64,000 nt of DNA from Patescibacteria group bacterium (GTDB lineage: Bacteria; Patescibacteriota; Patescibacteriia; Magasanikbacterales; GWA2-37-8). Below are positions 558 through 63,991 of the stretch, in pieces (positions within the stretch are counted from its first letter, which is position 1; the number at the start of each line of letters is the position of its first letter). Position numbers and translations under genes: made by a program. Location of the stretch: positions 5,803 through 69,802 of the forward strand of contig JAQWDH010000005.1 of assembly GCA_028705565.1 (NCBI GenBank). The letters are read 5' to 3'. Under the pieces are notes generated by a model. The model saw only the letters and a program-made list of their open reading frames with translations, was not told the origin of the DNA and ran no database searches.

Positions 558-679
558 TTGTCATTGCGATCCCGACTTAGTCGGGAGAAGCAATCCCACG
601 GTTCGGTAGTGCCAATAATATATTTCTAAAACAATGGGATTGTTTCGTCGTTCGTTTCACTCACTCCTCGCAATGACAA
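558..679. repeat. GC-rich palindromic MITE-like element (termini ttgtcattgcga...tcgcaatgacaa; inner gcaatccca...tgggattg)
   Basis: Inverted-repeat termini and inner inverted repeat read directly; same family as in-frame copies inside leuS. Confidence 0.75.
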
Positions 680-22498: not shown

Positions 22499-23999
22499 AT
22501 AATAATTTGTTTACCACCCAAACAATAAACCCGTATATTGCGACCATTCCCCACCACGGAAGAAAAAAATCCATCGCGGATAAATTCCAACCGCCTATTT
22601 TTTCCGCTATCATTATAACATAATTCAAACCGATGCCCACAATCCAGGCGACAACTTGCCCGAAAGGAAACCAAACAAAACTCAAAACAACAGCCAAAAA
22701 ACCGAAAAACATCAAATAAGGAACAATCCACAAAATCAAAACATTGGCTACCGGAGCGATCGCGGATAATCGACCGAATTGAAATAAAATCAGAGGCAAG
22801 GTGGCGATAATGGCGGAAAAAGTCGGAGCTAAAATTTGTTTAAACAACGAGGATTTGTTTTTTCCACCTAAAAACGGACTTAGATAAACGATTCCGGCGG
22901 TTGCCAAAAAAGACAACTGAAATCCCGCGTCCCAAACAAGAACATACGGATTAAACAAAAGCATCAACGCCGCCGCCAAAGCCAAAACATATCCTACGCG
23001 CGATAATCTGCCTAAACGCTCGGCGATTAAAAGCACAACACCCATAATTCCGGCGCGCATAACCGAAGCTGAAGCGCCAGTAAAAATGACAAAAACGCAA
23101 ATACCAAAAATCGCAAGCCAAAAAGCTTGACGCCTGTATAATCCGGCTGAAACCAAAAAAATCATAAAAGCCGCGGCAATAATGTTTATATTATAACCTG
23201 ACACAGCGACAATATGCGAAATGCCGGCTCTATTAAAATTTTCTTTCAAATCATCGGGTATTCCGGAACGCGCGCCGTAAAGCAATCCTGATAAAAGTCC
23301 GCTGTCCGGTTCAGGCCATAATTTTTCTATCTGTTCGTTTATCCTAGTTTTTAACCGTAAAATATTTTTTAAAACAAAATTTCCCTCGTCCGCGCCGATT
23401 TTTTCAATTTTCGCGTTTACGCATATTGACCAAATTCCGTCTTTCGCCAAATATCTGTCGTATCTGAAATTTCCATCAGGACTGTTTCGCGGACTTTTCA
23501 AATCGCACGATATTTTTAACTTATCTCCATATTCGTAGCGTGGATACAACAGGCCTTCAACTAACGCGCGTCCGGAAACTTTTTTATTGGAAGACGCTTC
23601 TAAATCATAAATAAATTCTGTTTTAATAATATATTTAACGCTGTCAGGACGGATGTCCGGCTCGCCCACCACCCAACCTATGATTTTTCCTCTCTCTCCG
23701 TTGTAATATAAAATGTTTTTCGCGTCTCCGGATGGAACGCTAATAAAAAAACGAATAGCTCCCAAAACAAAAAATAAAACGCAAAAAAACAAAAATCTGC
23801 TGTTTATATTTTTCCAAAAAATCGCAATCGCGAAAACCAAACACCAAAAAACAACAAATAAATAAAATAAAATATTTTTTTCAATGTCCGAATAAGAAAA
23901 AATGCCGACTCCTGAAATAAAACAAAAACAGAGCATAAGAAATGCCCCGCTTTTTGAATTGATAATTTTTTCAACAACATTCTCTTTCCGAAATGTCAT
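22485..23999 (-). CDS. comEC: ComEC/Rec2 DNA-uptake channel, membrane domains only (DUF4131 + competence domain)
   Basis: 504 aa polytopic; OB-fold-like N-region and competence-domain helices; MBL domain encoded separately at 21032..21877. Confidence 0.65.
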   Translation of the reverse strand: MTFRKENVVEKIINSKSGAFLMLCFCFISGVGIFSYSDIEKNILFYLFVVFWCLVFAIAIFWKNINSRFLFFCVLFFVLGAIRFFISVPSGDAKNILYYNGERGKIIGWVVGEPDIRPDSVKYIIKTEFIYDLEASSNKKVSGRALVEGLLYPRYEYGDKLKISCDLKSPRNSPDGNFRYDRYLAKDGIWSICVNAKIEKIGADEGNFVLKNILRLKTRINEQIEKLWPEPDSGLLSGLLYGARSGIPDDLKENFNRAGISHIVAVSGYNINIIAAAFMIFLVSAGLYRRQAFWLAIFGICVFVIFTGASASVMRAGIMGVVLLIAERLGRLSRVGYVLALAAALMLLFNPYVLVWDAGFQLSFLATAGIVYLSPFLGGKNKSSLFKQILAPTFSAIIATLPLILFQFGRLSAIAPVANVLILWIVPYLMFFGFLAVVLSFVWFPFGQVVAWIVGIGLNYVIMIAEKIGGWNLSAMDFFLPWWGMVAIYGFIVWVVNKLLYVKN

Positions 24000-26900
24000 A
24001 CCACAATGCTAACCAATTTTCCTTTTACATAAATTATTTTTTTCGGCTCTTTGCCTTCCAGCCATTTTTGAATTTTTTCACTCGCGAGCGCTTGTTTTTT
24101 AGCTTCTTCTTCGCTTATCTCCGCTGGCGCGATTAAACTATCGCGAACCTTGCCGTTCACCTGCACAACCAAAATAATTTCGTTCTCCATTGCCGATTTG
24201 GCGTCATATTCAGGCCATTTTTCAAAAATTACGCTTTTTTTATGCCCCAACAAACTCCAGATTTCTTCGCAAAAATGCGGGGCGAACGGCGATAATATCT
24301 TAATAAATAAAGAATAATGTTCAATTGATATTGTTTCTTGTTTTGATAATTCATTTGCTAACTCCATCATTTTCGCGATAGCCGTGTTAAAGCGCATCGC
24401 TTCAATGTCTTCGGTGACTTTTTTTATTGTTTGATGAAGCACAGATGTTATTTTGTCATTGCGAGGATTCGCCCAGGGCGAAGATGAAGCAATCCCGTCA
24501 TTTTTTTGTTTAGTTTTGCTTTTAACGACACGGTCAAAAAGAAACCACACTTTCTCCAAAAATCTTTTAGTTCCAACCAATCCGTTGGTATTCCAAGCGC
24601 ACGGCTGACTGAAGGGACCCATAAACATTTCATAAACGCGCATCGCGTCAGCTCCAAATTCCTTTACCACATCGTCCGGGTTTATCACGTTTCCCCAACG
24701 TTTGCTCATCTTGCGACCGTCTTCGGCTAAAATCAATCCGACGCTTTGTAATTTTTCAAACGGCTCTTCTTTATTAACAACGCCGATATCATATAAAAAT
24801 TTATGCCAAAAACGAGCGTAAATAAGATGACGCGTGGCGTGCTCGGCTCCACCGACATAAAAATCAACCGGAAGCCACCAATCAAACGCTTTACTGTAAT
24901 TGGAAATTGGAAAATTGCCTGCCTGCCGGTAGGCAGGGAAATTGGAAATTTTTTTCATGATATACGCGAGATAATACCAACACGACCCAGCCCATTGGGG
25001 CATCGTGTTGGTTTCTCGTTTCGCCGGTCCTCCGCATTTAGGACATTTTACGTTCACCCATTTTTGAATTCCGGCAAGCGGCGACTCGCCCGTGCCTGTC
25101 GGAACATAAGATTTCACATTAGGAAGCTTTATCGGCAATTTATCTTCCGGTATCGCCATCCAACCCGGATTTAATCGTTCACCATTGGAAATTGTCTCCT
25201 TTCGGGAGATATCCTGTGGGAGAAAATTTTCCATTGATTTTTTACACGCTGGGCAAAAAATCAATGGTATTGGTTCTCCCCAATAACGTTGTCTGGAAAA
25301 AACCCAATCGCGCAATTTATAATTTATTTTCCGTTCCCCATATTTTTTGTCTTCCAACCATTTGATTATTTTTTCTTTCGCCTCTTTGGTTGATAAACCG
25401 TCCAAAAATGTTGAATTAACCGACAGTCCATCGCCCGTATAAGCGCTATTTTTTACGAATTTTTCAAAAAGATAATGATGCAGAGGGTCTTTTACTTTTT
25501 CATCCGCTTCTTTTTCAGTTATCCATTCCAATTTGAATTTGTCTTTTTCCTTATCTGTTAAATTTTGCCCTCCATTTTTTTCGTCAGACAATTCAAAAAA
25601 CAAACCGACTGCTTCTATTTCACGATTTACATTTTTAGAGGCGGCAAAATAATGATGATGAATTTTTTCCGATTCGGCTATTAATTTTACATTTTTATAT
25701 CCTGTTTCTTCTTCAATTTCCCTTTGAGCGCATTTAACCGCGTCCTCTCCGTCTTTTAATCCTCCGCCGATAAATAAATTTCCTCCAAATTTTTCGCCCC
25801 AATTCAAAGAAAGAAGTTTATTGTTTTTTGGGTCGCGCACCAATGCCACGATACTGCGACGAAATTCCTCATTGTCTTTTTTCTGTCCGGTAATCGGCTC
25901 TACCACGGTTTTAATCGGCAATCCGTATTTTTTCGCGAATTCCATATCTCTGTCGTCATGCGCCGGCACGGCCATAACAGCTCCGGCGCCATAACCTCCG
26001 ATTACATAATCGGCGACAAAAATAGGCAATTCCTCGCCGTTGACCGGATTTATCGCTTTAATACCTTTAATTTCAACGCCGGTTTTGTCTTTTTGCAGTT
26101 CGCTTCGTTCCAAAACCGTTTTGTGTTTTGCTTTTTCAACATACGCGGCTATGTCAGCGAAATTTTCAATTTTCCTGCCTACCGGTTTACATACCGTAGG
26201 TATGTTTACATACCGTAGGTATGCAGGGAGACAATTTTCAATTAAAGAATGCTCAGGGGCGACAACAACATAAGTCGCGCCGAATAAAGTATCCGGACGA
26301 GTGGTAAAAACCTCCAAAATGTCATTGCGAGGAATTCCCGAAGGGGATGACGAAGCAATCCCACTGTTACCATTATAATTGTTATAAGATTGCTTCGCTT
26401 CACTCGCAATGACAAAACGCACTGTCGCTCCTTCGCTTCTGCCAATCCAATTTTTTTGCATTTCCTTAATCGCTTCAGGCCAATTTTTCAATTTATCCAA
26501 ATCATTTAACAGCCGTTCGGCGTAATCGGTAATTTTTAACACCCATTGTCTCATTGGCTTCTGCTCAACAGCGGAACCGCAACGCTCGCATTTTCCATCC
26601 TCCAAATCCTCATTTGCCAAACCTGTCTGGCACGACGGACACCAATTTATCGGAGCGTATGATTCATAAGCCAAACCTTTTTTAAACATTTGCAAAAACA
26701 TCCATTGCGTCCATTTATAATATTCCGGATCCGTTGTATTTATTTCCCTGCTCCAATCATAAGTAAAACCCAAAAGTCCAAGCTGTTTTTTGAATATCTT
26801 GATATTTTTTTCAGTCGCTACGCGTGGATGAACTTTATTTTTAATGGCGTAATTTTCCGCCGGCAAACCGAAAGCGTCCCATCCCATCGGATGCAAAACA

Positions 26901-27115
26901 TTAAACCCCTGCATTTGTTTCATTCTGGCGATGACATCGGTGGCGATATAACCTTTCGGATGCCCGACATGCAAACCGGCTCCGGAAGGATACGGAAACA
27001 TATCCAAAATATAATACTTCGGCTTGTCAAAAGTTTTTTTGGTTTGAAAAAGTTTTTTCTTTTCCCAATATCTCTGCCACTTTTTCTCAATTTTTTCCGG
27101 ATTATAATTTTTCAT
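23996..27115 (-). CDS. leuS: Leucyl-tRNA synthetase with NUDIX-domain insertion and two in-frame palindromic-element insertions
   Basis: HVGHP, NWIGRSEGATVRF, AHDDRDMEFAKKYGLPI, KLRDWVFSRQRYWGEPIP, VGGAEHATRHLIYARFW, KMSKRWGN motifs; 1039 aa vs typical about 820-860. Confidence 0.9.
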   Translation of the reverse strand: MKNYNPEKIEKKWQRYWEKKKLFQTKKTFDKPKYYILDMFPYPSGAGLHVGHPKGYIATDVIARMKQMQGFNVLHPMGWDAFGLPAENYAIKNKVHPRVATEKNIKIFKKQLGLLGFTYDWSREINTTDPEYYKWTQWMFLQMFKKGLAYESYAPINWCPSCQTGLANEDLEDGKCERCGSAVEQKPMRQWVLKITDYAERLLNDLDKLKNWPEAIKEMQKNWIGRSEGATVRFVIASEAKQSYNNYNGNSGIASSSPSGIPRNDILEVFTTRPDTLFGATYVVVAPEHSLIENCLPAYLRYVNIPTVCKPVGRKIENFADIAAYVEKAKHKTVLERSELQKDKTGVEIKGIKAINPVNGEELPIFVADYVIGGYGAGAVMAVPAHDDRDMEFAKKYGLPIKTVVEPITGQKKDNEEFRRSIVALVRDPKNNKLLSLNWGEKFGGNLFIGGGLKDGEDAVKCAQREIEEETGYKNVKLIAESEKIHHHYFAASKNVNREIEAVGLFFELSDEKNGGQNLTDKEKDKFKLEWITEKEADEKVKDPLHHYLFEKFVKNSAYTGDGLSVNSTFLDGLSTKEAKEKIIKWLEDKKYGERKINYKLRDWVFSRQRYWGEPIPLIFCPACKKSMENFLPQDISRKETISNGERLNPGWMAIPEDKLPIKLPNVKSYVPTGTGESPLAGIQKWVNVKCPKCGGPAKRETNTMPQWAGSCWYYLAYIMKKISNFPAYRQAGNFPISNYSKAFDWWLPVDFYVGGAEHATRHLIYARFWHKFLYDIGVVNKEEPFEKLQSVGLILAEDGRKMSKRWGNVINPDDVVKEFGADAMRVYEMFMGPFSQPCAWNTNGLVGTKRFLEKVWFLFDRVVKSKTKQKNDGIASSSPWANPRNDKITSVLHQTIKKVTEDIEAMRFNTAIAKMMELANELSKQETISIEHYSLFIKILSPFAPHFCEEIWSLLGHKKSVIFEKWPEYDAKSAMENEIILVVQVNGKVRDSLIAPAEISEEEAKKQALASEKIQKWLEGKEPKKIIYVKGKLVSIVV
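24455..24496. repeat. Palindromic element inserted in-frame in leuS, 42 bp, encodes GIASSSPWANPRND
   Basis: gtcattgcgagg-attcgcccagggcgaa-gatgaagcaatccc; length divisible by 3; ORF continuous through it. Confidence 0.75.
25440..25860 (-). other. NUDIX hydrolase domain embedded in LeuRS between the editing domain and the KLRDW segment
   Basis: Nudix box GGLKDGEDAVKCAQREIEEETGY fits Gx5Ex7REUxEExGU, at about 25698-25769; preceded by RSIVALVRDPKNNKLLSL. Confidence 0.7.
26321..26413. repeat. Palindromic element inserted in-frame in leuS, 93 bp, encodes ...YNGNSGIASSSPSGIPRNDI
   Basis: gtcattgcgag...cgaagcaatc / gattgcttcg...ctcgcaatgac inverted repeats; 31 codons; sits just after the NWIGRSEGATVRF start of the CP1 domain. 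Confidence 0.8.
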
Positions 27116-34255: not shown

Positions 34256-35251
34256 TTATTTCTTATTTTTCTTTCCATTTAAATATCTCTTCATTGTTTT
34301 ATCAAAATCAGAAATAAGATTTTTGTTCTGTTCTTTTTTGTATTTTTCAAATTCTGCATTAGCCACCAGTACGGCTTGCTCGGCGCTTACTTTACCTGAA
34401 TTAACTAGAAGTTTTTTCTCGCTCAGTTTCAAAAAATCATCAAGTTTACCAATCCAGTCAGTCATTTTCATAAATCGACCGTTTGTTGCTTGTAATTCAG
34501 CAAAATCTAAATAAAGTGAAACAATTAAATTGAGTTGTTTTAGCTCGTTCTCCGACAAATAATTCTTGGCAATTTTTATATCTTGAGCGGTGACGTATTT
34601 ACCCTTGAAATTAGTTAGCCCCATCATCAGTTTTTTGCTATTCGCCCGATTGGCCACAATTTCTGCTGCCGTTTGTCCATGAACAGCAAAATGCATTTTG
34701 TTTTGAACAATAGCAAAAAAATCTTTTGTTAGTTCGTCGTCCTTTTTATAATCAATGCTAGTGGCGTAAATGTCGGTTACTTTTTGATAAAAATTGCGTT
34801 CACTACTCCGGATATCTCTAATTCTTTGGAGCAGTTCTTCAAAATAACGCGATTTATTATCGCCCTGTTTTAATCGTTCATCGTCTAACACAAACCCTTT
34901 TATAATATATTCCTTAAGCCGCTGTGTTGCCCAAATTCTAAACTGTGTTCCACGCAATGATTTAACTCGATAGCCGACGGAAATAATGATATCAAGATTA
35001 TAATAATTTGTCGGTTTAGTAGAAAATTCGGAATTTCCGAATTTTCTCATTGTTTGTGCTAAAACAAGCTCTTTTTCATCATAAATATTCTGAATGTGCT
35101 CATTTACCGTAGATTTTGATTTATCAAAAAGAACAGTCATTTCATCTTGGGTAAGCCAAACAGTTCCATCTTCCATTTTCACTTGCAGTTTTGCTTCCCC
35201 GTCATCAGTGGTGTAAATAATTATTTGTGACTTATGGTTGTTTTTTTTCAT
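34256..35251 (-). CDS. RhuM-family (virulence protein RhuM-like) protein
   Basis: 331 aa; N-terminus IIIYTTDDGEAKLQVKMEDGTVWLTQDEMTVLFDKSKSTVNEHIQNIYDEKEL matches the conserved RhuM-family N-region. Confidence 0.6.
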   Translation of the reverse strand: MKKNNHKSQIIIYTTDDGEAKLQVKMEDGTVWLTQDEMTVLFDKSKSTVNEHIQNIYDEKELVLAQTMRKFGNSEFSTKPTNYYNLDIIISVGYRVKSLRGTQFRIWATQRLKEYIIKGFVLDDERLKQGDNKSRYFEELLQRIRDIRSSERNFYQKVTDIYATSIDYKKDDELTKDFFAIVQNKMHFAVHGQTAAEIVANRANSKKLMMGLTNFKGKYVTAQDIKIAKNYLSENELKQLNLIVSLYLDFAELQATNGRFMKMTDWIGKLDDFLKLSEKKLLVNSGKVSAEQAVLVANAEFEKYKKEQNKNLISDFDKTMKRYLNGKKNKK

Positions 35252-35380: not shown

Positions 35381-35455
35381 TGGTAGCCCCAACGGGAATC
35401 GAACCCGTATTACCACATTGAAAGCGTGGTGTCCTAGCCATTAGACGATGGGGCC
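35381..35455 (-). tRNA. tRNA-Glu (anticodon UUC), CCA encoded
   Basis: Cloverleaf folded by hand: acceptor GGCCCCA/TGGGGCT, anticodon stem CCACG/TGTGG, loop CTTTCAA, T-loop GGTTCGATTCC. Confidence 0.85.
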
Positions 35456-35557: not shown

Positions 35558-35631
35558 GTCAGGGTAGCTCAGATGGTTAGAGCACGGGATTCATAACCCC
35601 GAGGTCGGGAGTTCGATTCTCCCCCCTGACA
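35558..35631 (+). tRNA. tRNA-Met (anticodon CAU; elongator or Ile-lysidine type, 1-72 paired)
   Basis: Acceptor GTCAGGG/CCCTGAC, D-arm GCTCAGATGGTTAGAGC, anticodon loop TTCATAA, T-arm GGGAGTTCGATTCTCCC. Confidence 0.85.
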
Positions 35632-35676
35632 CTAAAAATCGTTCTTTAAAATCTGCCGATTGGCGGAAGGAGGAAA

Positions 35677-50635: not shown

Positions 50636-50745
50636 TTGTCATTGCGCTTCGCTCGTAATGACAATATTGTCCATTATCCGTTAATGTCACAAGACAGGGA
50701 TCCCTCTCCGCCCTTGGCGGATCGGGATGACAGCATCGTCCGTAA
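50636..50745. repeat. Two partial palindromic element copies (ttgtcattgcg...taatgacaa; inverted left end of the 14556-family element)
   Basis: Reverse complement of 50716-50745 equals gctgtcatcccgatccgccaagggcggaga, matching the start of copy 14556. Confidence 0.65.
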
Positions 50746-59523: not shown

Positions 59524-61947
59524 TTATTTTTTCTTCAAATTTTTAAAGGCCGCGTCGTGAATCGGTTTTCCGTAAATTCCGACTGGAAAAAGAAGCTCAA
59601 TCAAAGACCTTAATCCTTTTGTTTTATAAAGACGGTCGTCTCCGTATCTTTTGTCGTCTTCTTTTTTTTGCCGTTCAAAATAAAAACCGCTGTGTCCATC
59701 TTCGCTCGGAGCGAACACCTGTATTTCTTCGTAATAAACATTGTTTCCGCCAGTATATTGAATATAAAATTTCGCGAACCGTATATCGCCTCCGCTTCCG
59801 ACGCTTCTTTTTTTCGCCTGATTTCCATTTCCGCCGGTTGGCTTGTAATCAAAAATTTTTATTCCATGATGTTTGGCTATCTCTGAAATCAATTCCAAAA
59901 TTGCCGGAACCTCTTCTCCATCTTTTTGTTTTATTTCTTTTTCAATCAAAATCGGAAAACCGCCGTTCATTTCCAGCTTACCTTCTTTGTCCCTTTTCGC
60001 TTCAAAAATTTTAATGTCTGAAAAATCTTTTTTTAAATCCGCGAATTTTTTCATTTCACCCATCTTTTTCAAATCCGCGTCCAAAGGATGTAAAACGATT
60101 TCTCTTCTAAAAATATCTATTATGTTTTTCGGGTCGTCCAGTCCCCTTTCAACCGCTTTGCGATAAACCGATTCAATTTTTTTCGTGTCGGTTTCAATTG
60201 ACGCCAAATAATTTTTATTTTTAAATTTTCGCAATTCCGCTTTTTGTCTTCCTAATAATACGTCGTCTTTCACTTCCACATCTTCCAAAATTTCATTGTC
60301 TTTTTTGTAATCCAAAAATTTATTGACGGTCGCGCCTTTAAAAACATCGGAAAACACTTTTTCAATCGGCGCGTTGCCAAGATTTTTACGTTCTTCATAA
60401 TGTTTGTCCGTTTCCGCGAAAAGATATAAAAGAACTAGCTGTCTTCTCGCCTCAAAAACCACTTCCTTGATTTTTCTTTTCAATTCTTCTTTACTGAAAT
60501 TTTCGTCCTTAAATCTTTCTTTCCATTCTTCGTCTCCGGCCGGAAAAGCCATTTTGATAATACCCTCCAAATCAAAATTTCTCACTTCATTTAAAGTTTT
60601 AACCAGCGAATGGTGAAAATCAATATCAATTTTCGGGCTGATGGCGCTATCAACCAAATAATCCAAAAACGAATTTATCCTGTCAAATTTTGAAAAAAGC
60701 GCGTCTTTTTCCACGCCAAAAGATTCCATAAAATCTTCCTCTATTTGTTTCGCCGTGTCCATATCGCGCGTTAATTCTCCTATTTTTTTAATCTTTCCAA
60801 AAAAACTTTTTTCAGAAGAAGAAATTTTATTGGCAAACATTTCCAATTTACCGATAAATTTGGAAAGTTTTTTGTTCTTTTTGGCGATTTCTAGATATTT
60901 ATCGGATAAATACGAAGTTTCCAAAAGCGCGTAAATACAACGCAAAACCGCTTCTATCTCGGATTTTCCCGCGCGTTCTCCGCCGACTTCTTCTTCAAAA
61001 TTACTCAAGTCCGCCGCCTCGCAAAACAAACCACGAGCGTTTTTTCCGTCTTTATTTTTAAAATCGCCATATTTTTTCCAAAAATCTTTTATCACTGTTT
61101 GCGTTCCCCATAAACCCTCACCTAATCCTTTTTTATCAACGGATGACGCGAGACGGCGCTTCCATTTATTTTTTTCTTCTTCATGCGCGCCCGACAAATC
61201 AAGAAAATGCGTTAAAACATTTATTTTTTTATTTGCTTCCTTTTCTTCCATAATTGACAGAAGTTCTCCTGAAATTTCACTCGCCGAATCGGAATCCGCG
61301 TCCAACAAATTTTCTTCTTTCTTGCCTTCCGCTGTAATATTCAGACTGTCCAACAAAAAAACTGTCTTTTTTTCCGGCTCAATTTCAAATTTTCCTTTCG
61401 TAAAAAGTTCAGCTGTTTGTTTTAAATCCAAGTGATGAAAATCTTCAACTTTATCTTCCGCCGGATTCAATGGATACGCTTCGTCCAGCGGCGGAACATT
61501 GCCGACAAAAAAAGACGCTTCTATCGGTATTTTTTCTTTTTTTCGGCTGTGAAAAATTTTATAATCCATTTTTCCGATAAATTTTAAATCAACATCAAGC
61601 GGACGCAGGTGCGTTTCTTCCAACATTTCCCTTTGCGCGGTTTCTTCTATTTTTTCCCAATCTTTCTTTTTTCCGCCGACAGGCATAACCTGCCCCGGAT
61701 TTACGCTTTCACTATTTTTTTCCATCCACATCGCGGTCGTAAAAAAAACATCCGATGGCTCGGCTCCTGATTCAATTTCTTTTTTAATTTCGTTTGTCGG
61801 ACGCGAACGCAAAATGAACACTCTGGCGACTTCACGCTTTTTTTCCGACTCTTTTTCTAAATTTAAACCTTCCTTGAACATAAACGATAATGAATTATAA
61901 ATATTAAGCCATAGTCCGTAGTACAAAGTCCGTAGTCCGTAGTCCAC
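59524..61947 (-). CDS. Large hypothetical protein with N-terminal Nudix-like domain
   Basis: 807 aa; GGKKKDWEKIEETAQREMLEETHL fits Gx5Ex7REUxEExGU except G to H at the penultimate position; remainder has no recognised domain. Confidence 0.4.
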   Translation of the reverse strand: MDYGLRTLYYGLWLNIYNSLSFMFKEGLNLEKESEKKREVARVFILRSRPTNEIKKEIESGAEPSDVFFTTAMWMEKNSESVNPGQVMPVGGKKKDWEKIEETAQREMLEETHLRPLDVDLKFIGKMDYKIFHSRKKEKIPIEASFFVGNVPPLDEAYPLNPAEDKVEDFHHLDLKQTAELFTKGKFEIEPEKKTVFLLDSLNITAEGKKEENLLDADSDSASEISGELLSIMEEKEANKKINVLTHFLDLSGAHEEEKNKWKRRLASSVDKKGLGEGLWGTQTVIKDFWKKYGDFKNKDGKNARGLFCEAADLSNFEEEVGGERAGKSEIEAVLRCIYALLETSYLSDKYLEIAKKNKKLSKFIGKLEMFANKISSSEKSFFGKIKKIGELTRDMDTAKQIEEDFMESFGVEKDALFSKFDRINSFLDYLVDSAISPKIDIDFHHSLVKTLNEVRNFDLEGIIKMAFPAGDEEWKERFKDENFSKEELKRKIKEVVFEARRQLVLLYLFAETDKHYEERKNLGNAPIEKVFSDVFKGATVNKFLDYKKDNEILEDVEVKDDVLLGRQKAELRKFKNKNYLASIETDTKKIESVYRKAVERGLDDPKNIIDIFRREIVLHPLDADLKKMGEMKKFADLKKDFSDIKIFEAKRDKEGKLEMNGGFPILIEKEIKQKDGEEVPAILELISEIAKHHGIKIFDYKPTGGNGNQAKKRSVGSGGDIRFAKFYIQYTGGNNVYYEEIQVFAPSEDGHSGFYFERQKKEDDKRYGDDRLYKTKGLRSLIELLFPVGIYGKPIHDAAFKNLKKK

Positions 61948-61957
61948 GCAACATCTT

Positions 61958-63991
61958 TCATTCCAAATGCGCGGTTTCCAATTCTTTCATCTTTTTCGCC
62001 AAAATCGGATATTTTTCCGCTTCAGGCGCCAAAAGCCGCGCCGCTTCTTTCGCTTTCTTTATTATACCAATATCCGTAAGTTTTGCCAGCCGCAGGTTCA
62101 TCATCCCGCTTTGCTCGGTTCCATACACTTCTCCAGGCCCGCGCATCTCCAAATCCTTGTCAGCCAATTTAAACCCGTTATTTTCTTTTTCAAAATATCG
62201 CAAACGCTCCGTTGCTTTCACCGCGTCCGATTCAGTAAAAAGCAAACAATAAGATTGATGCTCGGCGCGTCCGACCCGTCCGCGAAATTGATGCAATTGC
62301 GCCAAACCGAATCTGTCGGCGTTTTCAATCATCATTACCGAGGCGTTGGATATATCAACGCCGACCTCAACTACGGAAGTTGAAACGAGTATATCAATTT
62401 CCTTGTTTTTAAATTTTGCCATCGTATCTTCTTTTTCTTTCGCCTTTTGTTTGCCATGCAAATATCCGATTTTTAAATCCGTAAAAATTTTTTTGGACAA
62501 TTTTTCATATTCCGCCATCACTGATTTTTTTTCTTCCGCGCCAACGGCTCGCGGCTCCAAATTCAAATTGCAAGTTTCTGATTCGGAATCGCAAAAAATT
62601 AGCGGACAAATAACAAATGCCTGCCTGCCTGCTTTTATTTGTTCGCGGATGAATTGATACGCTTTTTCACGTTTTACCGGCTCCACCAAACGAGTCAAAA
62701 CTTTTTTCCTGCCAAGAGGCAATTCGTCAATGATTGAAACATCCAAATCGCCATAAATCGTGAGCGCCAAAGAACGCGGAATCGGTGTCGCGGTCATGCT
62801 TAAAAAATGTATTCCTTTCTTATTTGATGAAGCGCCGCCTTTTTCTTTTATTATTTTCCTTTGTTCAACTCCAAACCTGTGCTGTTCGTCAACAACCACC
62901 AAACCCAATTTTTCAAATTCAACTTTCTCACTCAAAAGCGCGTGCGTTCCGATAATAATGCTAACTTTTTTGTTTCTAATTTCTTTTAATAATACATTCT
63001 TTGATATTTTGATTTTGTCATTGATTGGAAATTGTAAATTGGAAATTTGACATTGCGAGCGTGTTAATAAACATAAACGCGCTTTATCTCCCAGCAATCC
63101 AACCATTGTATTGTAATGCTGTGTCGCCAAAATTTCAGTCGGCGCCATTATCGCCGCCTGATATCCGTTCAAAAAAGCGCTATATGCCGCCATCGCCGCC
63201 ACCACTGTTTTACCCGAACCGACATCTCCTGAAAGCAAACGATTCATTGGTTTGCCCTTCGTGATGTCTTGTAAAATTTCCCACGCGGATATTTTTTGCG
63301 ATTTGGTAAGCGTAAAAGGCAACGCTTTCACGAAATCTTGAATTTCTTTTTCTTTAAATTTCAAAATCGGAGCTGATTCAAAATTTCTTTTCATTCTCGC
63401 CGTTTCCGCCTTAAACTGCAATAAAAACCATTCATTGAATTTAAGCCGCTCAACGCTTTGCTTTAAATCATTGTCATCCTCTGGAAAATGTATTCCTCGC
63501 AACGCTTCGGAAATCGGAGCTAAGTCAAACTTTTCCAAAATAATTTCCGGTATCCATTCGGAAATATTTTGAGACAAACCGACAATTTGACTCTCAAGAA
63601 AACGAGTCTGTTTTTGAGTAAGCCCTGCTGTCAAAGGATAAATCGGAACAAGCCGCGCGGTATGCGTGGTCGCGTCTTTATTGGCTTTTTCGTAAACAGG
63701 ACTTACAAATTGCAACCCGAGCATGTCCGCCTGTGTTTTTCCTGATAAAAAAACAACATCGCCAATTTTCAAAATTTTAGTCAAAAACGGCTGATTAAAC
63801 CATACGACGCGAACGCTTCCGCTTTCGTCCGAAATCAGCGCCTCAGTGATGATTTTTCTTTTCTTAAAACTTCGCTTGTTGGCTATAAGTTCAACTCGCC
63901 CGCGAATTGTGATTGTTTCCCCGTCTTTTAGTTCGCTAATTGGAACCAAACGGCGAAAATCTTCATAACGGAATGGAAAAAAATACAACAA
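61958..63991 (-). CDS. recG: ATP-dependent DNA helicase RecG
   Basis: 677 aa; wedge domain, GDVGSGKT, DEQHRFG, QLHQFRGRVGR. Confidence 0.9.
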   Translation of the reverse strand: MLYFFPFRYEDFRRLVPISELKDGETITIRGRVELIANKRSFKKRKIITEALISDESGSVRVVWFNQPFLTKILKIGDVVFLSGKTQADMLGLQFVSPVYEKANKDATTHTARLVPIYPLTAGLTQKQTRFLESQIVGLSQNISEWIPEIILEKFDLAPISEALRGIHFPEDDNDLKQSVERLKFNEWFLLQFKAETARMKRNFESAPILKFKEKEIQDFVKALPFTLTKSQKISAWEILQDITKGKPMNRLLSGDVGSGKTVVAAMAAYSAFLNGYQAAIMAPTEILATQHYNTMVGLLGDKARLCLLTRSQCQISNLQFPINDKIKISKNVLLKEIRNKKVSIIIGTHALLSEKVEFEKLGLVVVDEQHRFGVEQRKIIKEKGGASSNKKGIHFLSMTATPIPRSLALTIYGDLDVSIIDELPLGRKKVLTRLVEPVKREKAYQFIREQIKAGRQAFVICPLIFCDSESETCNLNLEPRAVGAEEKKSVMAEYEKLSKKIFTDLKIGYLHGKQKAKEKEDTMAKFKNKEIDILVSTSVVEVGVDISNASVMMIENADRFGLAQLHQFRGRVGRAEHQSYCLLFTESDAVKATERLRYFEKENNGFKLADKDLEMRGPGEVYGTEQSGMMNLRLAKLTDIGIIKKAKEAARLLAPEAEKYPILAKKMKELETAHLE

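What the first reader, a model, noticed from the sequence alone, without database searches (positions are those of the whole stretch)
25440..25860. NUDIX hydrolase domain embedded inside leucyl-tRNA synthetase
Between the end of the editing domain (AHDDRDMEFAKKYGLPI) and the conserved KLRDWVFSRQRYWGEPIP segment there are about 215 residues, where E. coli LeuRS has about 75. The extra region carries a textbook Nudix box, GGLKDGEDAVKCAQREIEEETGY, which fits Gx5Ex7REUxEExGU. It also has the upstream VALVRD...NKLLSL strand pattern. A Nudix pyrophosphohydrolase fused into an aminoacyl-tRNA synthetase could hydrolyse aminoacyl-adenylates, Ap4A made by synthetases, or other nucleotide derivatives. 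This architecture is not standard for LeuRS.
Basis: partly seen in the sequence, partly recalled or inferred. Interest (0 to 1): 0.8.

Follow-up and report, generated by a model that had tools for sequence, protein, structure and literature searches.

The report
Nudix hydrolase inside LeuRS editing domain
A leucyl-tRNA synthetase from a Patescibacteria (CPR) genome carries a complete, apparently active Nudix pyrophosphohydrolase domain spliced into a loop of its editing domain; many uncultured small-genome bacteria share this two-enzyme design, and no paper I could search describes it.

Summary
The ORF at window 23996-27115 (- strand, 1039 aa) is a bacterial-type LeuRS (TIGR00396, 1006 bits). 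Its HIGH, KMSKS and editing motifs are all intact.

The architecture is not a one-off:
- 83 of the 120 closest LeuRS relatives carry it.
- At least 183 species genomes encode a relative of the domain, and about 75 of the 80 loci inspected are LeuRS carrying it at the same site. These are Patescibacteria and small-genome Bacilli/Mycoplasmatota MAGs.
- The catalytic box is nearly invariant in an unbiased set of 61 sequences.
- Some relatives have two or three Nudix copies, or Ham1 or alpha/beta-hydrolase insertions.
- Stand-alone CP1-Nudix proteins exist in which the editing residues are degenerate but the Nudix box is intact.

The substrate is unknown. The features lean weakly towards an ApnA-hydrolase or RppH-like enzyme. 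I found no publication on this. I class it as a new variant of a known kind, of moderately high interest.

The parts
23996..27115 (-). leuS ORF, 1039 aa: a bacterial-type leucyl-tRNA synthetase that carries the inserted Nudix domain
   Evidence: ORF. TIGR00396 leuS_bact scores 1006 bits against a cutoff of 548. E 1.7e-206 to T. thermophilus LeuRS 1h3n. 100% identical to NCBI MDD4476997.1.
25898..26455 (-). CP1 editing domain, N-terminal part (aa 221-406), upstream of the insertion
   Evidence: PF13603 matches aa 221-414, profile positions 1-149 of 185. Aligns to Tt LeuRS up to residue 363.
26288..26305 (-). Editing-site threonine-rich motif TTRPDT (aa 271-276), intact
   Evidence: Read from the sequence. 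T271, T272, R273, D275 and T276 are invariant in the 71-sequence alignment A3.
25946..25963 (-). Editing-site motif AHDDRD (aa 385-390), including the conserved editing Asp387
   Evidence: H386 and D387 are invariant in A3.
25448..25897 (-). Inserted domain, aa 407-556 (150 aa), replacing the 11-residue loop Tt 364-374
   Evidence: Boundaries come from the alignment to 1h3n. Absent from 10 related Magasanikbacteria-type LeuRS of 800-870 aa. pLDDT is 83-96 in the full-length model.
25484..25864 (-). Pfam NUDIX (PF00293) match, aa 418-544
   Evidence: E 3.1e-13, 50.3 bits, gathering score 21.1.
25697..25765 (-). Nudix box GGLKDGEDAVKCAQREIEEETGY (aa 451-473), the metal-binding catalytic motif
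   Evidence: Exact fit to GX5EX7REUXEEXGU. In 61 insert-bearing LeuRS that were not selected on this motif: G451 61/61, E457 56 (plus 3 Asp), R465 60, E466 61, E469 60, E470 61, G472 59.
25646..25663 (-). Putative X-loop IHHHYF (aa 485-490), 12-17 residues after the box; Tyr489/Phe490 are the candidate specificity determinant
   Evidence: Position 489 is Tyr in 38 and Phe in 20 of 61 sequences. The X-loop concept, and the link between a Tyr there and ApnA hydrolases, come from PMC5389931.
25319..25447 (-). CP1 editing domain, C-terminal part (aa 557-599), downstream of the insertion and ending at KLRDW
   Evidence: Aligns without gaps to Tt 375-417.
26960..26971 (-). HIGH signature HVGH (aa 49-52) of the synthetic site
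   Evidence: H49, G51 and H52 are invariant in A3.
24698..24712 (-). KMSKS signature KMSKR (aa 802-806)
   Evidence: K802, M803, S804 and K805 are invariant in A3.

Best explanation
The gene encodes a bifunctional enzyme.

Shown: it is a complete bacterial-type LeuRS with intact synthetic-site and editing-site signatures. A whole Nudix-fold domain is spliced in frame into a surface beta-hairpin of its CP1 editing domain. The Nudix metal-binding and catalytic residues are conserved across distant relatives about as strictly as the LeuRS active-site motifs.

Inferred: the insert is a working Mg2+-dependent pyrophosphohydrolase that rides on CP1 as a third hydrolytic or catalytic centre, while LeuRS continues to charge and proofread tRNA-Leu.

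Inferred, with less weight: its substrates are nucleotide by-products that contain a polyphosphate bridge. The most likely are dinucleoside polyphosphates such as Ap4A, which aminoacyl-tRNA synthetases themselves make from the aminoacyl-adenylate plus ATP. The same chemistry at RNA 5' ends (ppp or Np4 caps, as with RppH) is also possible. Cleavage would yield NMP plus NTP/NDP. Fusion to an essential, constitutively made synthetase would guarantee expression and co-localisation in organisms with tiny genomes.
For: - LeuRS identity and intact motifs.
- Nudix HMM hit.
- Purifying selection on catalytic residues in an unbiased set.
- Wide, old distribution: 83 of the 120 closest LeuRS carry PF00293. 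At least 183 species genomes encode a relative, and about 75 of the 80 loci inspected are full LeuRS with the domain at the same site. The exhaustive search gave 284 cluster representatives, and 67 of the best 90 are attached to LeuRS or CP1 and none to another synthetase.
- Stand-alone CP1-Nudix proteins keep the Nudix box (10 of 11) while losing editing residues. One lies directly upstream of a Nudix-less leuS.
Against: - No activity was measured.
- No curated Nudix subfamily model is reached. RppH scores 26 bits against a cutoff of 116, and MutT 21 against 98.
- The closest structure, 2azw, is an uncharacterised structural-genomics protein. The next hits span ApnA, NDP-sugar, ADP-ribose, NTP and PP-InsP hydrolases with similar scores, so the substrate call is weak.
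- An aromatic residue in the X-loop is not specific to ApnA hydrolases.
- Relatives also carry Ham1/ITPase insertions, which points towards NTP-pool sanitation instead.
- Free-standing members of the same Nudix family exist, so the function does not strictly need LeuRS.
- I could not read model coordinates, so I do not know whether the Nudix site faces the editing site, the synthetic site or the tRNA.
Confidence: 0.5

Rival explanations
1. The Nudix domain is a general nucleotide-pool sanitiser of the MutT, NudI or NudB type, acting on damaged or non-canonical (d)NTPs. It is only a passenger. LeuRS loops in these lineages tolerate insertions, and fusing a house-cleaning enzyme to an essential gene saves a promoter and a gene in a minimal genome. 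There is no mechanistic coupling with leucylation.
For: - Relatives carry a Ham1/ITPase domain and alpha/beta-hydrolase domains in other loops of the same LeuRS, sometimes together with Nudix.
- The same loops in the window protein hold short palindromic inserts that model as disordered, so the loops are permissive.
- NudI, NudB, MutT1 and MutT-like structures are among the top structural hits.
- Free-standing family members exist, and JGI labels them MutT-type.
Against: - The MutT equivalog model scores 21 bits against a cutoff of 98.
- Of the best 90 representatives of this Nudix family, 67 are attached to LeuRS or CP1 and none to any other protein of comparable size. That is more specific than random hitch-hiking predicts.
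- Stand-alone forms repeatedly keep the CP1 scaffold.
Confidence: 0.25
2. CP1 and Nudix form one functional unit that acts on an RNA end or an adenylate-type ligand. The CP1 pocket normally holds the tRNA 3' adenosine. In this reading it positions a tRNA, an RNA or an adenosine-containing compound so that the Nudix site can cleave a pyrophosphate-linked group, such as a 5' triphosphate, an NAD or Np4 cap on tRNA-Leu or another RNA, or the second adenosine of Ap4A.
For: - Stand-alone proteins consist of a precisely excised CP1 domain plus Nudix.
- They appear in at least four places in a rough Nudix tree, and they keep the CP1 fold while losing the editing Thr-rich motif, the GTG loop and the Asp.
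- One occurs in a DPANN archaeon, which cannot have derived it from its own LeuRS type.
- One lies 43 bp upstream of a Nudix-less leuS.
- RppH is among the nearest characterised structural relatives.
- The connecting segments are confidently modelled, which suggests a fixed geometry.
Against: - Because the Nudix sits inside CP1, any partial duplication that retains it tends to retain CP1 flanks, so the association may be structural only.
- Nudix-only family members exist without CP1.
- The NJ tree has no support values.
- No RNA-binding evidence was obtained.
Confidence: 0.15
3. The domain is catalytically silent and serves as a ligand sensor or structural module that regulates LeuRS, as the Nudix-fold domains of NrtR or TRPM2 do, or it merely decorates the surface.
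For: - A minority subgroup has the box Arg shifted by one position, and a few sequences have a degenerate box (P0207, P0026).
Against: The full catalytic box REx2EE, together with Gx5E, is kept in 56-61 of 61 diverged sequences. Sensor-type Nudix domains typically lose these residues.
Confidence: 0.05
4. The fusion is an assembly, binning or gene-calling artefact, or the gene is a decaying pseudogene.
For: The source is a metagenome-assembled genome. GC content dips to 0.32-0.33 over the insert, against 0.42-0.46 in the flanks. One relative, L069, is split inside the Nudix region.
Against: - The reading frame is uninterrupted over 1039 codons.
- The same in-frame architecture was recovered independently in hundreds of assemblies from many studies.
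- Sequence is conserved on both sides of the junctions.
- The low GC fits a Lys/Glu/Asn-rich composition in a genome whose intergenic DNA is 0.26-0.28 GC.
Confidence: 0.01

Closest known systems
Bacterial-type leucyl-tRNA synthetase (LeuRS-B; T. thermophilus 1H3N/2V0C, E. coli 4AQ7 and related entries)
   Same: The domain order is the same: Rossmann core, ZN1, CP1 editing domain, second half of the core, anticodon-binding domain, C-terminal domain. HIGH, KMSKS, the TTRPDT editing motif and the editing Asp are present. E 1.7e-206 to 1h3n, and TIGR00396 is well above its cutoff.
   Different: - A 150-aa Nudix domain replaces the loop Tt 364-374 inside CP1.
- The leucine-specific domain (Tt 581-636) is missing.
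- There is a 26-aa extra segment at aa 625-650.
- Four short palindrome-encoded loops are present.
E. coli RppH/NudH and the asymmetric ApnA hydrolases (human NUDT2, lupin and C. elegans Ap4A hydrolases, T. thermophilus Ndx1)
   Different: Only 14-21% identity. The RppH equivalog HMMs are far below their cutoffs. The present domain has its own invariant features (W439, K494, W531 and the HHH(Y/F)(F/Y) loop, the latter from a pattern-selected set, so weaker). It is embedded in another enzyme.
PDB 2AZW, MutT/nudix family protein of Enterococcus faecalis (structural genomics, function unknown)
   Different: 18% identity. It is free-standing and uncharacterised, so it gives no functional transfer.
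Other bacterial synthetases with an added enzyme domain, for example NCBIfam NF040702 'isoleucine--tRNA ligase, N-acetyltransferase domain-containing'
   Same: This is a precedent for a class Ia synthetase fused to an unrelated catalytic domain. The family appears in the NCBIfam hit list.
   Different: The partner domain and the synthetase are both different. I did not examine where the GNAT domain sits. The AARS Online catalogue of synthetase domain superfamilies lists no Nudix domain (PMC11580382).
Free-standing trans-editing proteins derived from synthetase editing domains (AlaX, YbaK/ProX, ThrRS-ed); from my own knowledge
   Same: The stand-alone CP1-Nudix proteins (P0001, P0002, P0008 and others) are likewise autonomous copies of a synthetase editing domain.
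   Different: They derive from the class Ia CP1 fold. Most have lost the editing residues, and they carry a live Nudix domain. They are therefore unlikely to be deacylases.

Membership tests
Nudix hydrolase superfamily (Pfam PF00293) | Match to the family HMM above the curated gathering score | tested here: met
   50.3 bits against 21.1, E 3.1e-13, aa 418-544.
Nudix hydrolase superfamily (Pfam PF00293) | Nudix box GX5EX7REUXEEXGU with the metal-binding Glu residues | tested here: met
   aa 451-473 fit exactly. Nearly invariant in 61 unbiased homologues.
Nudix hydrolase superfamily (Pfam PF00293) | Alpha/beta/alpha sandwich Nudix fold with the box on a loop-helix-loop | tested here: met
Nudix hydrolase superfamily (Pfam PF00293) | Divalent-cation-dependent hydrolysis of a nucleoside diphosphate-X bond | not testable with these tools
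   Needs an enzyme assay.
Bacterial leucyl-tRNA synthetase (TIGR00396 leuS_bact) | Equivalog HMM above the curated cutoff | tested here: met
   1006 bits against 548.4.
Bacterial leucyl-tRNA synthetase (TIGR00396 leuS_bact) | Class I signatures HIGH and KMSKS | tested here: met
   HVGH at aa 49-52 and KMSKR at aa 802-806.
Bacterial leucyl-tRNA synthetase (TIGR00396 leuS_bact) | CP1 editing domain with the Thr-rich motif and the conserved Asp | tested here: met
   PF13603 E 1.6e-51. TTRPDT at aa 271-276, and AHD with D387.
Bacterial leucyl-tRNA synthetase (TIGR00396 leuS_bact) | Leucylation of tRNA-Leu and hydrolysis of mischarged tRNA | not testable with these tools
   Needs biochemistry. I also could not check whether it is the only leuS in the genome; there is none other in the 64-kb window.
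RppH / asymmetric ApnA hydrolase subfamily of Nudix | Curated equivalog HMM (NF001938 and related models) above its cutoff | tested here: not met
   Best score 25.9 bits against a cutoff of 116.
RppH / asymmetric ApnA hydrolase subfamily of Nudix | Tyr in the X-loop about 17 residues after the box (Dunn 1999, as cited in PMC5389931) | tested here: met
   Y489 is at +16 and F490 at +17. Position 489 is Tyr or Phe in 58 of 61. This is a weak, non-exclusive marker.
RppH / asymmetric ApnA hydrolase subfamily of Nudix | Closest structural neighbours belong to the subfamily | tested here: inconclusive
ADP-ribose pyrophosphatase subfamily | Conserved Pro about 16 residues after the box | tested here: not met
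   aa 484-492 read KIHHHYFAA, with no Pro. The marker is from PMC5389931.
NADH pyrophosphatase (NudC) subfamily | SQPWPFPxS motif after the box | tested here: not met
   The motif is absent from aa 407-556 (sequence). NudC NF001299 does not appear among the hits for the window insert.
MutT 8-oxo-dGTPase (TIGR00586) | Equivalog HMM above its cutoff | tested here: not met
   21.3 bits against 97.9.

The most novel reading that the evidence does not exclude
In Patescibacteria and allied small-genome bacteria, LeuRS CP1 is a platform that has repeatedly captured hydrolase domains: one to three Nudix copies, Ham1/ITPase and alpha/beta-hydrolase. On this reading CP1-Nudix is a genuine two-domain machine. 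The former editing pocket holds an adenosine or an RNA end, and the Nudix site cleaves a pyrophosphate-linked group. The synthetase would thereby gain a previously unknown clearance or proofreading activity, either destroying its own Ap4A-type by-products on site or uncapping/dephosphorylating tRNA or other RNA. The stand-alone, editing-dead CP1-Nudix proteins, including one in a DPANN archaeon, would be the trans-acting version of the same activity.
Probability: 0.15. Interest if true: 0.85.

Novelty: new variant of a known kind. Interest (0 to 1): 0.65.

Why it matters
Bacterial aminoacyl-tRNA synthetases rarely acquire extra catalytic domains, and the curated catalogue of synthetase domains lists no Nudix domain. 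Here a conserved, apparently active pyrophosphohydrolase sits inside the editing domain of an essential synthetase across a large part of the Candidate Phyla Radiation and in some gut Bacilli-type lineages.

If the substrate is Ap4A or an Np4-capped RNA, this would be a natural fusion that links the enzyme class making these poorly understood alarmones to an enzyme that destroys them. That would give a direct experimental handle on whether aaRS-made Ap4A must be cleared locally.

If instead it is an NTP sanitiser, it shows how minimal genomes package house-cleaning functions into essential genes.

In either case:
- It explains why NCBI labels these proteins only as 'class I tRNA ligase family protein'.
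- It defines permissive insertion sites in LeuRS that could be useful for engineering.
- It flags a family of stand-alone CP1-like proteins with no assigned function.

Tried and rejected
- The word-index homologue search with the insert alone returned only four fragments. I replaced it with the exhaustive representative search and a full-length search.
- Nudix-box invariance among the 65 LeuRS from the genome-contig loci was rejected as evidence. Those loci were retrieved with the patterns REIxEETGY and HHHYF, so the result is circular. The conservation claim rests on alignment A3, which was collected with the whole LeuRS.
- The PDB sequence-profile search gave only box-level hits at E about 1e-3. 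NCBIfam gave no subfamily above its cutoff. I therefore assigned no subfamily.
- The afdb50 fold library was unavailable.
- Model coordinates are not exposed, so I could not measure distances between the Nudix, editing and synthetic sites.
- Eight literature queries (plus the look-up in AARS Online) found no description of a LeuRS-Nudix fusion. The library lacks most subscription journals, so absence is not proven.
- Aminoacyl-adenylate hydrolysis was considered unlikely on chemical grounds. That bond is an acyl-phosphate and is handled by HIT-family enzymes (own knowledge). It was not excluded.
- Artefact, chimera and pseudogene readings were rejected (see rival explanations).
- The GC dip over the insert was considered as a sign of recent foreign origin and rejected, because relatives at 55-65% identity share the insert.
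- Gene neighbourhood gave no functional clue. The neighbours are comEC, gdh, infB, nusA, yidC and rny. The neighbourhoods of the stand-alone forms showed nothing consistent, apart from one leuS adjacency and one pth/hisS adjacency.
Full report
**The observation**

The window holds one long ORF on the minus strand, 23996..27115, encoding 1039 aa. NCBIfam identifies it as bacterial leucine--tRNA ligase (TIGR00396, 1006 bits, cutoff 548). It aligns to Thermus thermophilus LeuRS 1h3n with E 1.7e-206.

GGLKDGEDAVKCAQREIEEETGY (aa 451-473, window 25697-25765) fits the Nudix box GX5EX7REUXEEXGU exactly. It is the only such match in the six-frame translation of the 64-kb window. Pfam NUDIX (PF00293) matches aa 418-544 at E 3.1e-13, 50.3 bits against a gathering score of 21.1.

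**Where the domain sits**

In the alignment to 1h3n, query 1-406 pairs with Tt 1-363 and query 557-624 pairs with Tt 375-442 without gaps. So aa 407-556 (window 25448-25897), 150 residues, replace an 11-residue loop.

The Pfam LeuRS editing-domain model is cut at profile position about 149 of 185, and 43 further CP1 residues follow the insert before KLRDW. The Nudix domain is therefore nested inside the CP1 editing domain, between two neighbouring beta-strands (aa 405-409 and 563-565 in the model).

The LeuRS itself looks functional:
- HVGH (aa 49-52) and KMSKR (aa 802-806) are present.
- The editing motif TTRPDT (aa 271-276) and the editing Asp387 are present.
- All of these lie in columns that are invariant across 71 relatives.
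- The leucine-specific domain of Thermus (581-636) is absent.

**Fold**

AlphaFold2 was run on the full protein with a 71-sequence alignment and gave pLDDT 83 and pTM 0.77. The insert and both connecting segments score 83-96. The insert alone gave pLDDT 93.6 and pTM 0.88, with the strand/helix order of a Nudix fold and the REIEEE segment on the helix.

Against solved structures:
- Foldseek returns 525 matches with E <= 0.001; the 50 listed are all Nudix proteins.
- In Foldseek, E. coli RppH entries, including the Ap4A complex 7sp3, fill most of ranks 2-12.

**Distribution**

The protein is 100% identical to NCBI MDD4476997.1, 'class I tRNA ligase family protein [Patescibacteria group bacterium]'.
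- Of the 120 best-scoring LeuRS relatives, 83 carry PF00293. Most of the others are 800-870-aa Magasanikbacteria-type LeuRS without the insert.
- A scan of one genome per species found at least 183 genomes encoding a relative of the domain. Of the 80 loci retrieved, about 75 are LeuRS carrying the domain at the same CP1 site, most of them full length.
- The record titles name Saccharibacteria, Paceibacteria/Parcubacteria, Uhrbacteria, Berkelbacteria and other Patescibacteria, and also many Bacilli, Mycoplasmatota/Tenericutes and Erysipelotrichaceae gut MAGs. A few labels are probably wrong.
- An exhaustive HMMER search with the insert against 1.84 billion representatives gave 284 hits at E <= 1e-3 and 87 at E <= 1e-10.
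- I classified the best 90: 52 are LeuRS (full or fragments), 15 contain only CP1 plus Nudix, and 23 are Nudix without LeuRS parts. None belongs to another synthetase.

**Selection on catalysis**

Alignment A3 was collected with the whole LeuRS as query, so it was not selected on the Nudix box. In it, 61 sequences carry the insert. Their overall identity to the window protein is 55-65%. The box residues are nearly invariant:
- G451 61/61
- E457 56, plus 3 Asp
- R465 60
- E466 61
- E469 60
- E470 61
- G472 59
- Y473 56, plus 4 Phe

I do not use the 100% invariance seen in the genome contigs set. Those loci were fetched with the patterns REIxEETGY and HHHYF, so the result is circular.

**Hints on substrate**

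No curated Nudix subfamily is reached. The best hits are RppH at 26 bits (cutoff 116), MutT at 21 (cutoff 98) and NudB at 20 (cutoff 103).

Srouji et al. 2017 (PMC5389931) describe an 'X-loop' about 17 residues after the box that shapes specificity. A Tyr there goes with diadenosine polyphosphate hydrolases, a Pro with ADP-ribose pyrophosphatases, and SQPWPFPQS with NADH pyrophosphatases. Here the loop reads IHHHYF. Tyr489 is at +16 and is Tyr or Phe in 58 of 61 sequences. There is no Pro and no NudC motif.

aaRSs are the main cellular source of Ap4A, and Nudix enzymes including RppH degrade it and remove Np4 caps (PMC10148737). Together with the structural neighbours, this leans towards an ApnA-hydrolase or RppH-like activity. 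The lean is weak.

**Related architectures**

These were found in passing but bear on mechanism. Relatives carry other whole domains in loops of the same LeuRS:
- Ham1/ITPase
- a DUF559 Vsr-like endonuclease
- serine/alpha-beta hydrolase
- second and third Nudix copies

Mapped onto the window protein, the hot spots are:
- aa ~241-264: Ham1, DUF559 or two Nudix copies
- aa 407-556: this Nudix; P0249 has an alpha/beta-hydrolase directly after it
- aa 625-650: alpha/beta-hydrolase
- aa ~729: a 158-aa insert in P0165

In the window protein, three of these sites hold short extra segments. Two of them are encoded by palindromic DNA and model as disordered (pLDDT < 50).

Separately, there are stand-alone proteins of 270-350 aa that consist of a precisely excised CP1 domain with the Nudix in place. 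In 11 aligned examples:
- The Thr-rich motif is degenerate in most.
- The GTG loop is deleted in most.
- The editing Asp is lost in 6.
- The Nudix box is intact in 10.

They fall in at least four places in a rough neighbour-joining tree of the Nudix domain (no support values). One lies 43 bp upstream of an 804-aa Nudix-less leuS and just after another Nudix gene. One lies in a complete 875-kb DPANN archaeal genome near fibrillarin. Nudix-only members of the family (154-190 aa) also exist.

**Interpretation**

Shown: this is a full LeuRS with a structurally complete, evolutionarily constrained Nudix domain nested in CP1. The design is old and widespread.

Inferred: the domain is an active pyrophosphohydrolase, making the protein bifunctional.

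Less certain: it acts on dinucleoside polyphosphates or on polyphosphate-linked RNA 5' ends.

The main rival is a plain NTP-pool sanitiser that hitch-hikes on an essential gene. The Ham1 co-insertions and the permissive loops favour this reading. The strict LeuRS/CP1 association of the family counts against it.

A more novel reading is that CP1 and Nudix work as one unit on an RNA end or an adenosine-containing ligand. The repeated survival of editing-dead CP1 scaffolds attached to live Nudix domains suggests this. However, the nested topology alone could explain that pattern.

A silent sensor domain is unlikely given the box conservation. An assembly artefact is excluded by independent recovery in hundreds of assemblies.

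**Novelty**

The sequences and their automatic Pfam hits are already in public databases. Eight full-text queries found no description of a LeuRS-Nudix fusion, and the AARS Online catalogue of synthetase domains lists none. The searchable library omits most subscription journals, so prior description cannot be ruled out.

I class it as a new variant of a known kind: a known enzyme with a new nested catalytic domain. Interest is about 0.65. A synthetase specialist would be surprised, and the Ap4A link is directly testable, but function is unproven.

Noticed in passing
window 26321-26410, 26174-26230, 24911-24943, 24452-24499 (all inside the leuS ORF, - strand): Four short in-frame inserts are encoded by palindromic, hairpin-forming DNA: IASEAKQS...GIASSSPSGIPRND (RNA MFE -43.5), LPAYLRYVNIPTVCKPVGR, NFPAYRQAGNF and DGIASSSPWANPRNDK. 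They are absent from Thermus LeuRS and model as disordered loops (pLDDT < 50). They look like small REP/MITE-like palindromic repeats tolerated inside coding sequence.
   Followed up: partly
window 560-570, 667-677, 24455-24465, 26321-26331, 26403-26413, 50652-50662, 63049-63059: The arm motif GTCATTGCGAG of those palindromes occurs 7 times (with up to 1 mismatch) against 0.78 expected. The repeat family is therefore dispersed in the genome, both inside and outside leuS.
   Followed up: partly
relatives P0190, P0249, P0034 (Ham1); P0165, P0040 (DUF559); P0155, P0189, P0213, P0019, P0032 (alpha/beta hydrolase); P0007, P0010, P0047, P0244, L038, L059 (2-3 Nudix): Patescibacteria LeuRS is a hot spot for whole-domain insertions: ITPase-like Ham1, a Vsr-like endonuclease, serine hydrolase and extra Nudix copies. 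They sit at about four recurrent loops that correspond to window aa ~241-264, 407-556, 625-650 and ~729. The fragment P0091 suggests a further Nudix site near aa ~690.
   Followed up: partly
P0001 (L001 940-1752), P0002, P0008 (L082 6001-6864), P0013, P0015, P0017, P0026, P0027, P0076, P0136, P0141: These are stand-alone 'CP1 editing domain plus nested Nudix' proteins of 270-350 aa. Their editing motifs are degenerate but the Nudix box is intact. P0002 lies directly upstream of a Nudix-less leuS. P0008 is in a complete DPANN archaeal genome, CP066684.1.
   Followed up: partly
L007, L012, L014, L016-L023, L025-L031, L033-L037 and others (genome-contig loci): Many LeuRS-Nudix genes come from MAGs labelled Bacilli, Mycoplasmatota/Tenericutes, Erysipelotrichaceae or Bacillales. 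Their core is as similar to the window protein (about 55-60%) as other Patescibacteria LeuRS are. This suggests horizontal transfer of leuS between Patescibacteria and small-genome Firmicutes-related lineages, or mislabelled bins.
   Followed up: no
L069 4954-7274 (Clostridium sp. MAG chromosome CP091739.1): The LeuRS-Nudix reading frame is broken inside the Nudix region into two overlapping ORFs of 409 and 390 aa. This could be a frameshift, a sequencing error or a pseudogene.
   Followed up: no
window 24698-24730 region (aa ~798-802): This LeuRS lacks the leucine-specific domain found in Thermus LeuRS (Tt 581-636). The alignment jumps from Tt 580 to Tt 637 over about 4 residues.
   Followed up: no
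L073 5337-6423: In one Saccharibacteria MAG, a free-standing member of the same Nudix family lies immediately downstream of a peptidyl-tRNA hydrolase-like ORF and close to a histidyl-tRNA synthetase-like ORF (both ORFs identified by eye from their N-terminal sequences).
   Followed up: no
window 59524-61947 (- strand): An 807-aa ORF with no Pfam match at E <= 1e-6, lying between a RecG-like helicase gene and other genes.
   Followed up: no
window 34256-35251 (- strand), with tRNA-Glu at 35381-35455 and tRNA-Met at 35558-35632: A RhuM-family 'virulence protein' gene (Pfam E 4e-106) sits next to two tRNA genes, a typical setting for an integrated mobile element.
   Followed up: no
window 25300-25750: GC content falls to 0.32-0.33 across the Nudix insert, against 0.42-0.46 in the flanking leuS sequence. 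This is most simply explained by the Lys/Glu/Asn-rich composition, since distant relatives share the insert.
   Followed up: partly
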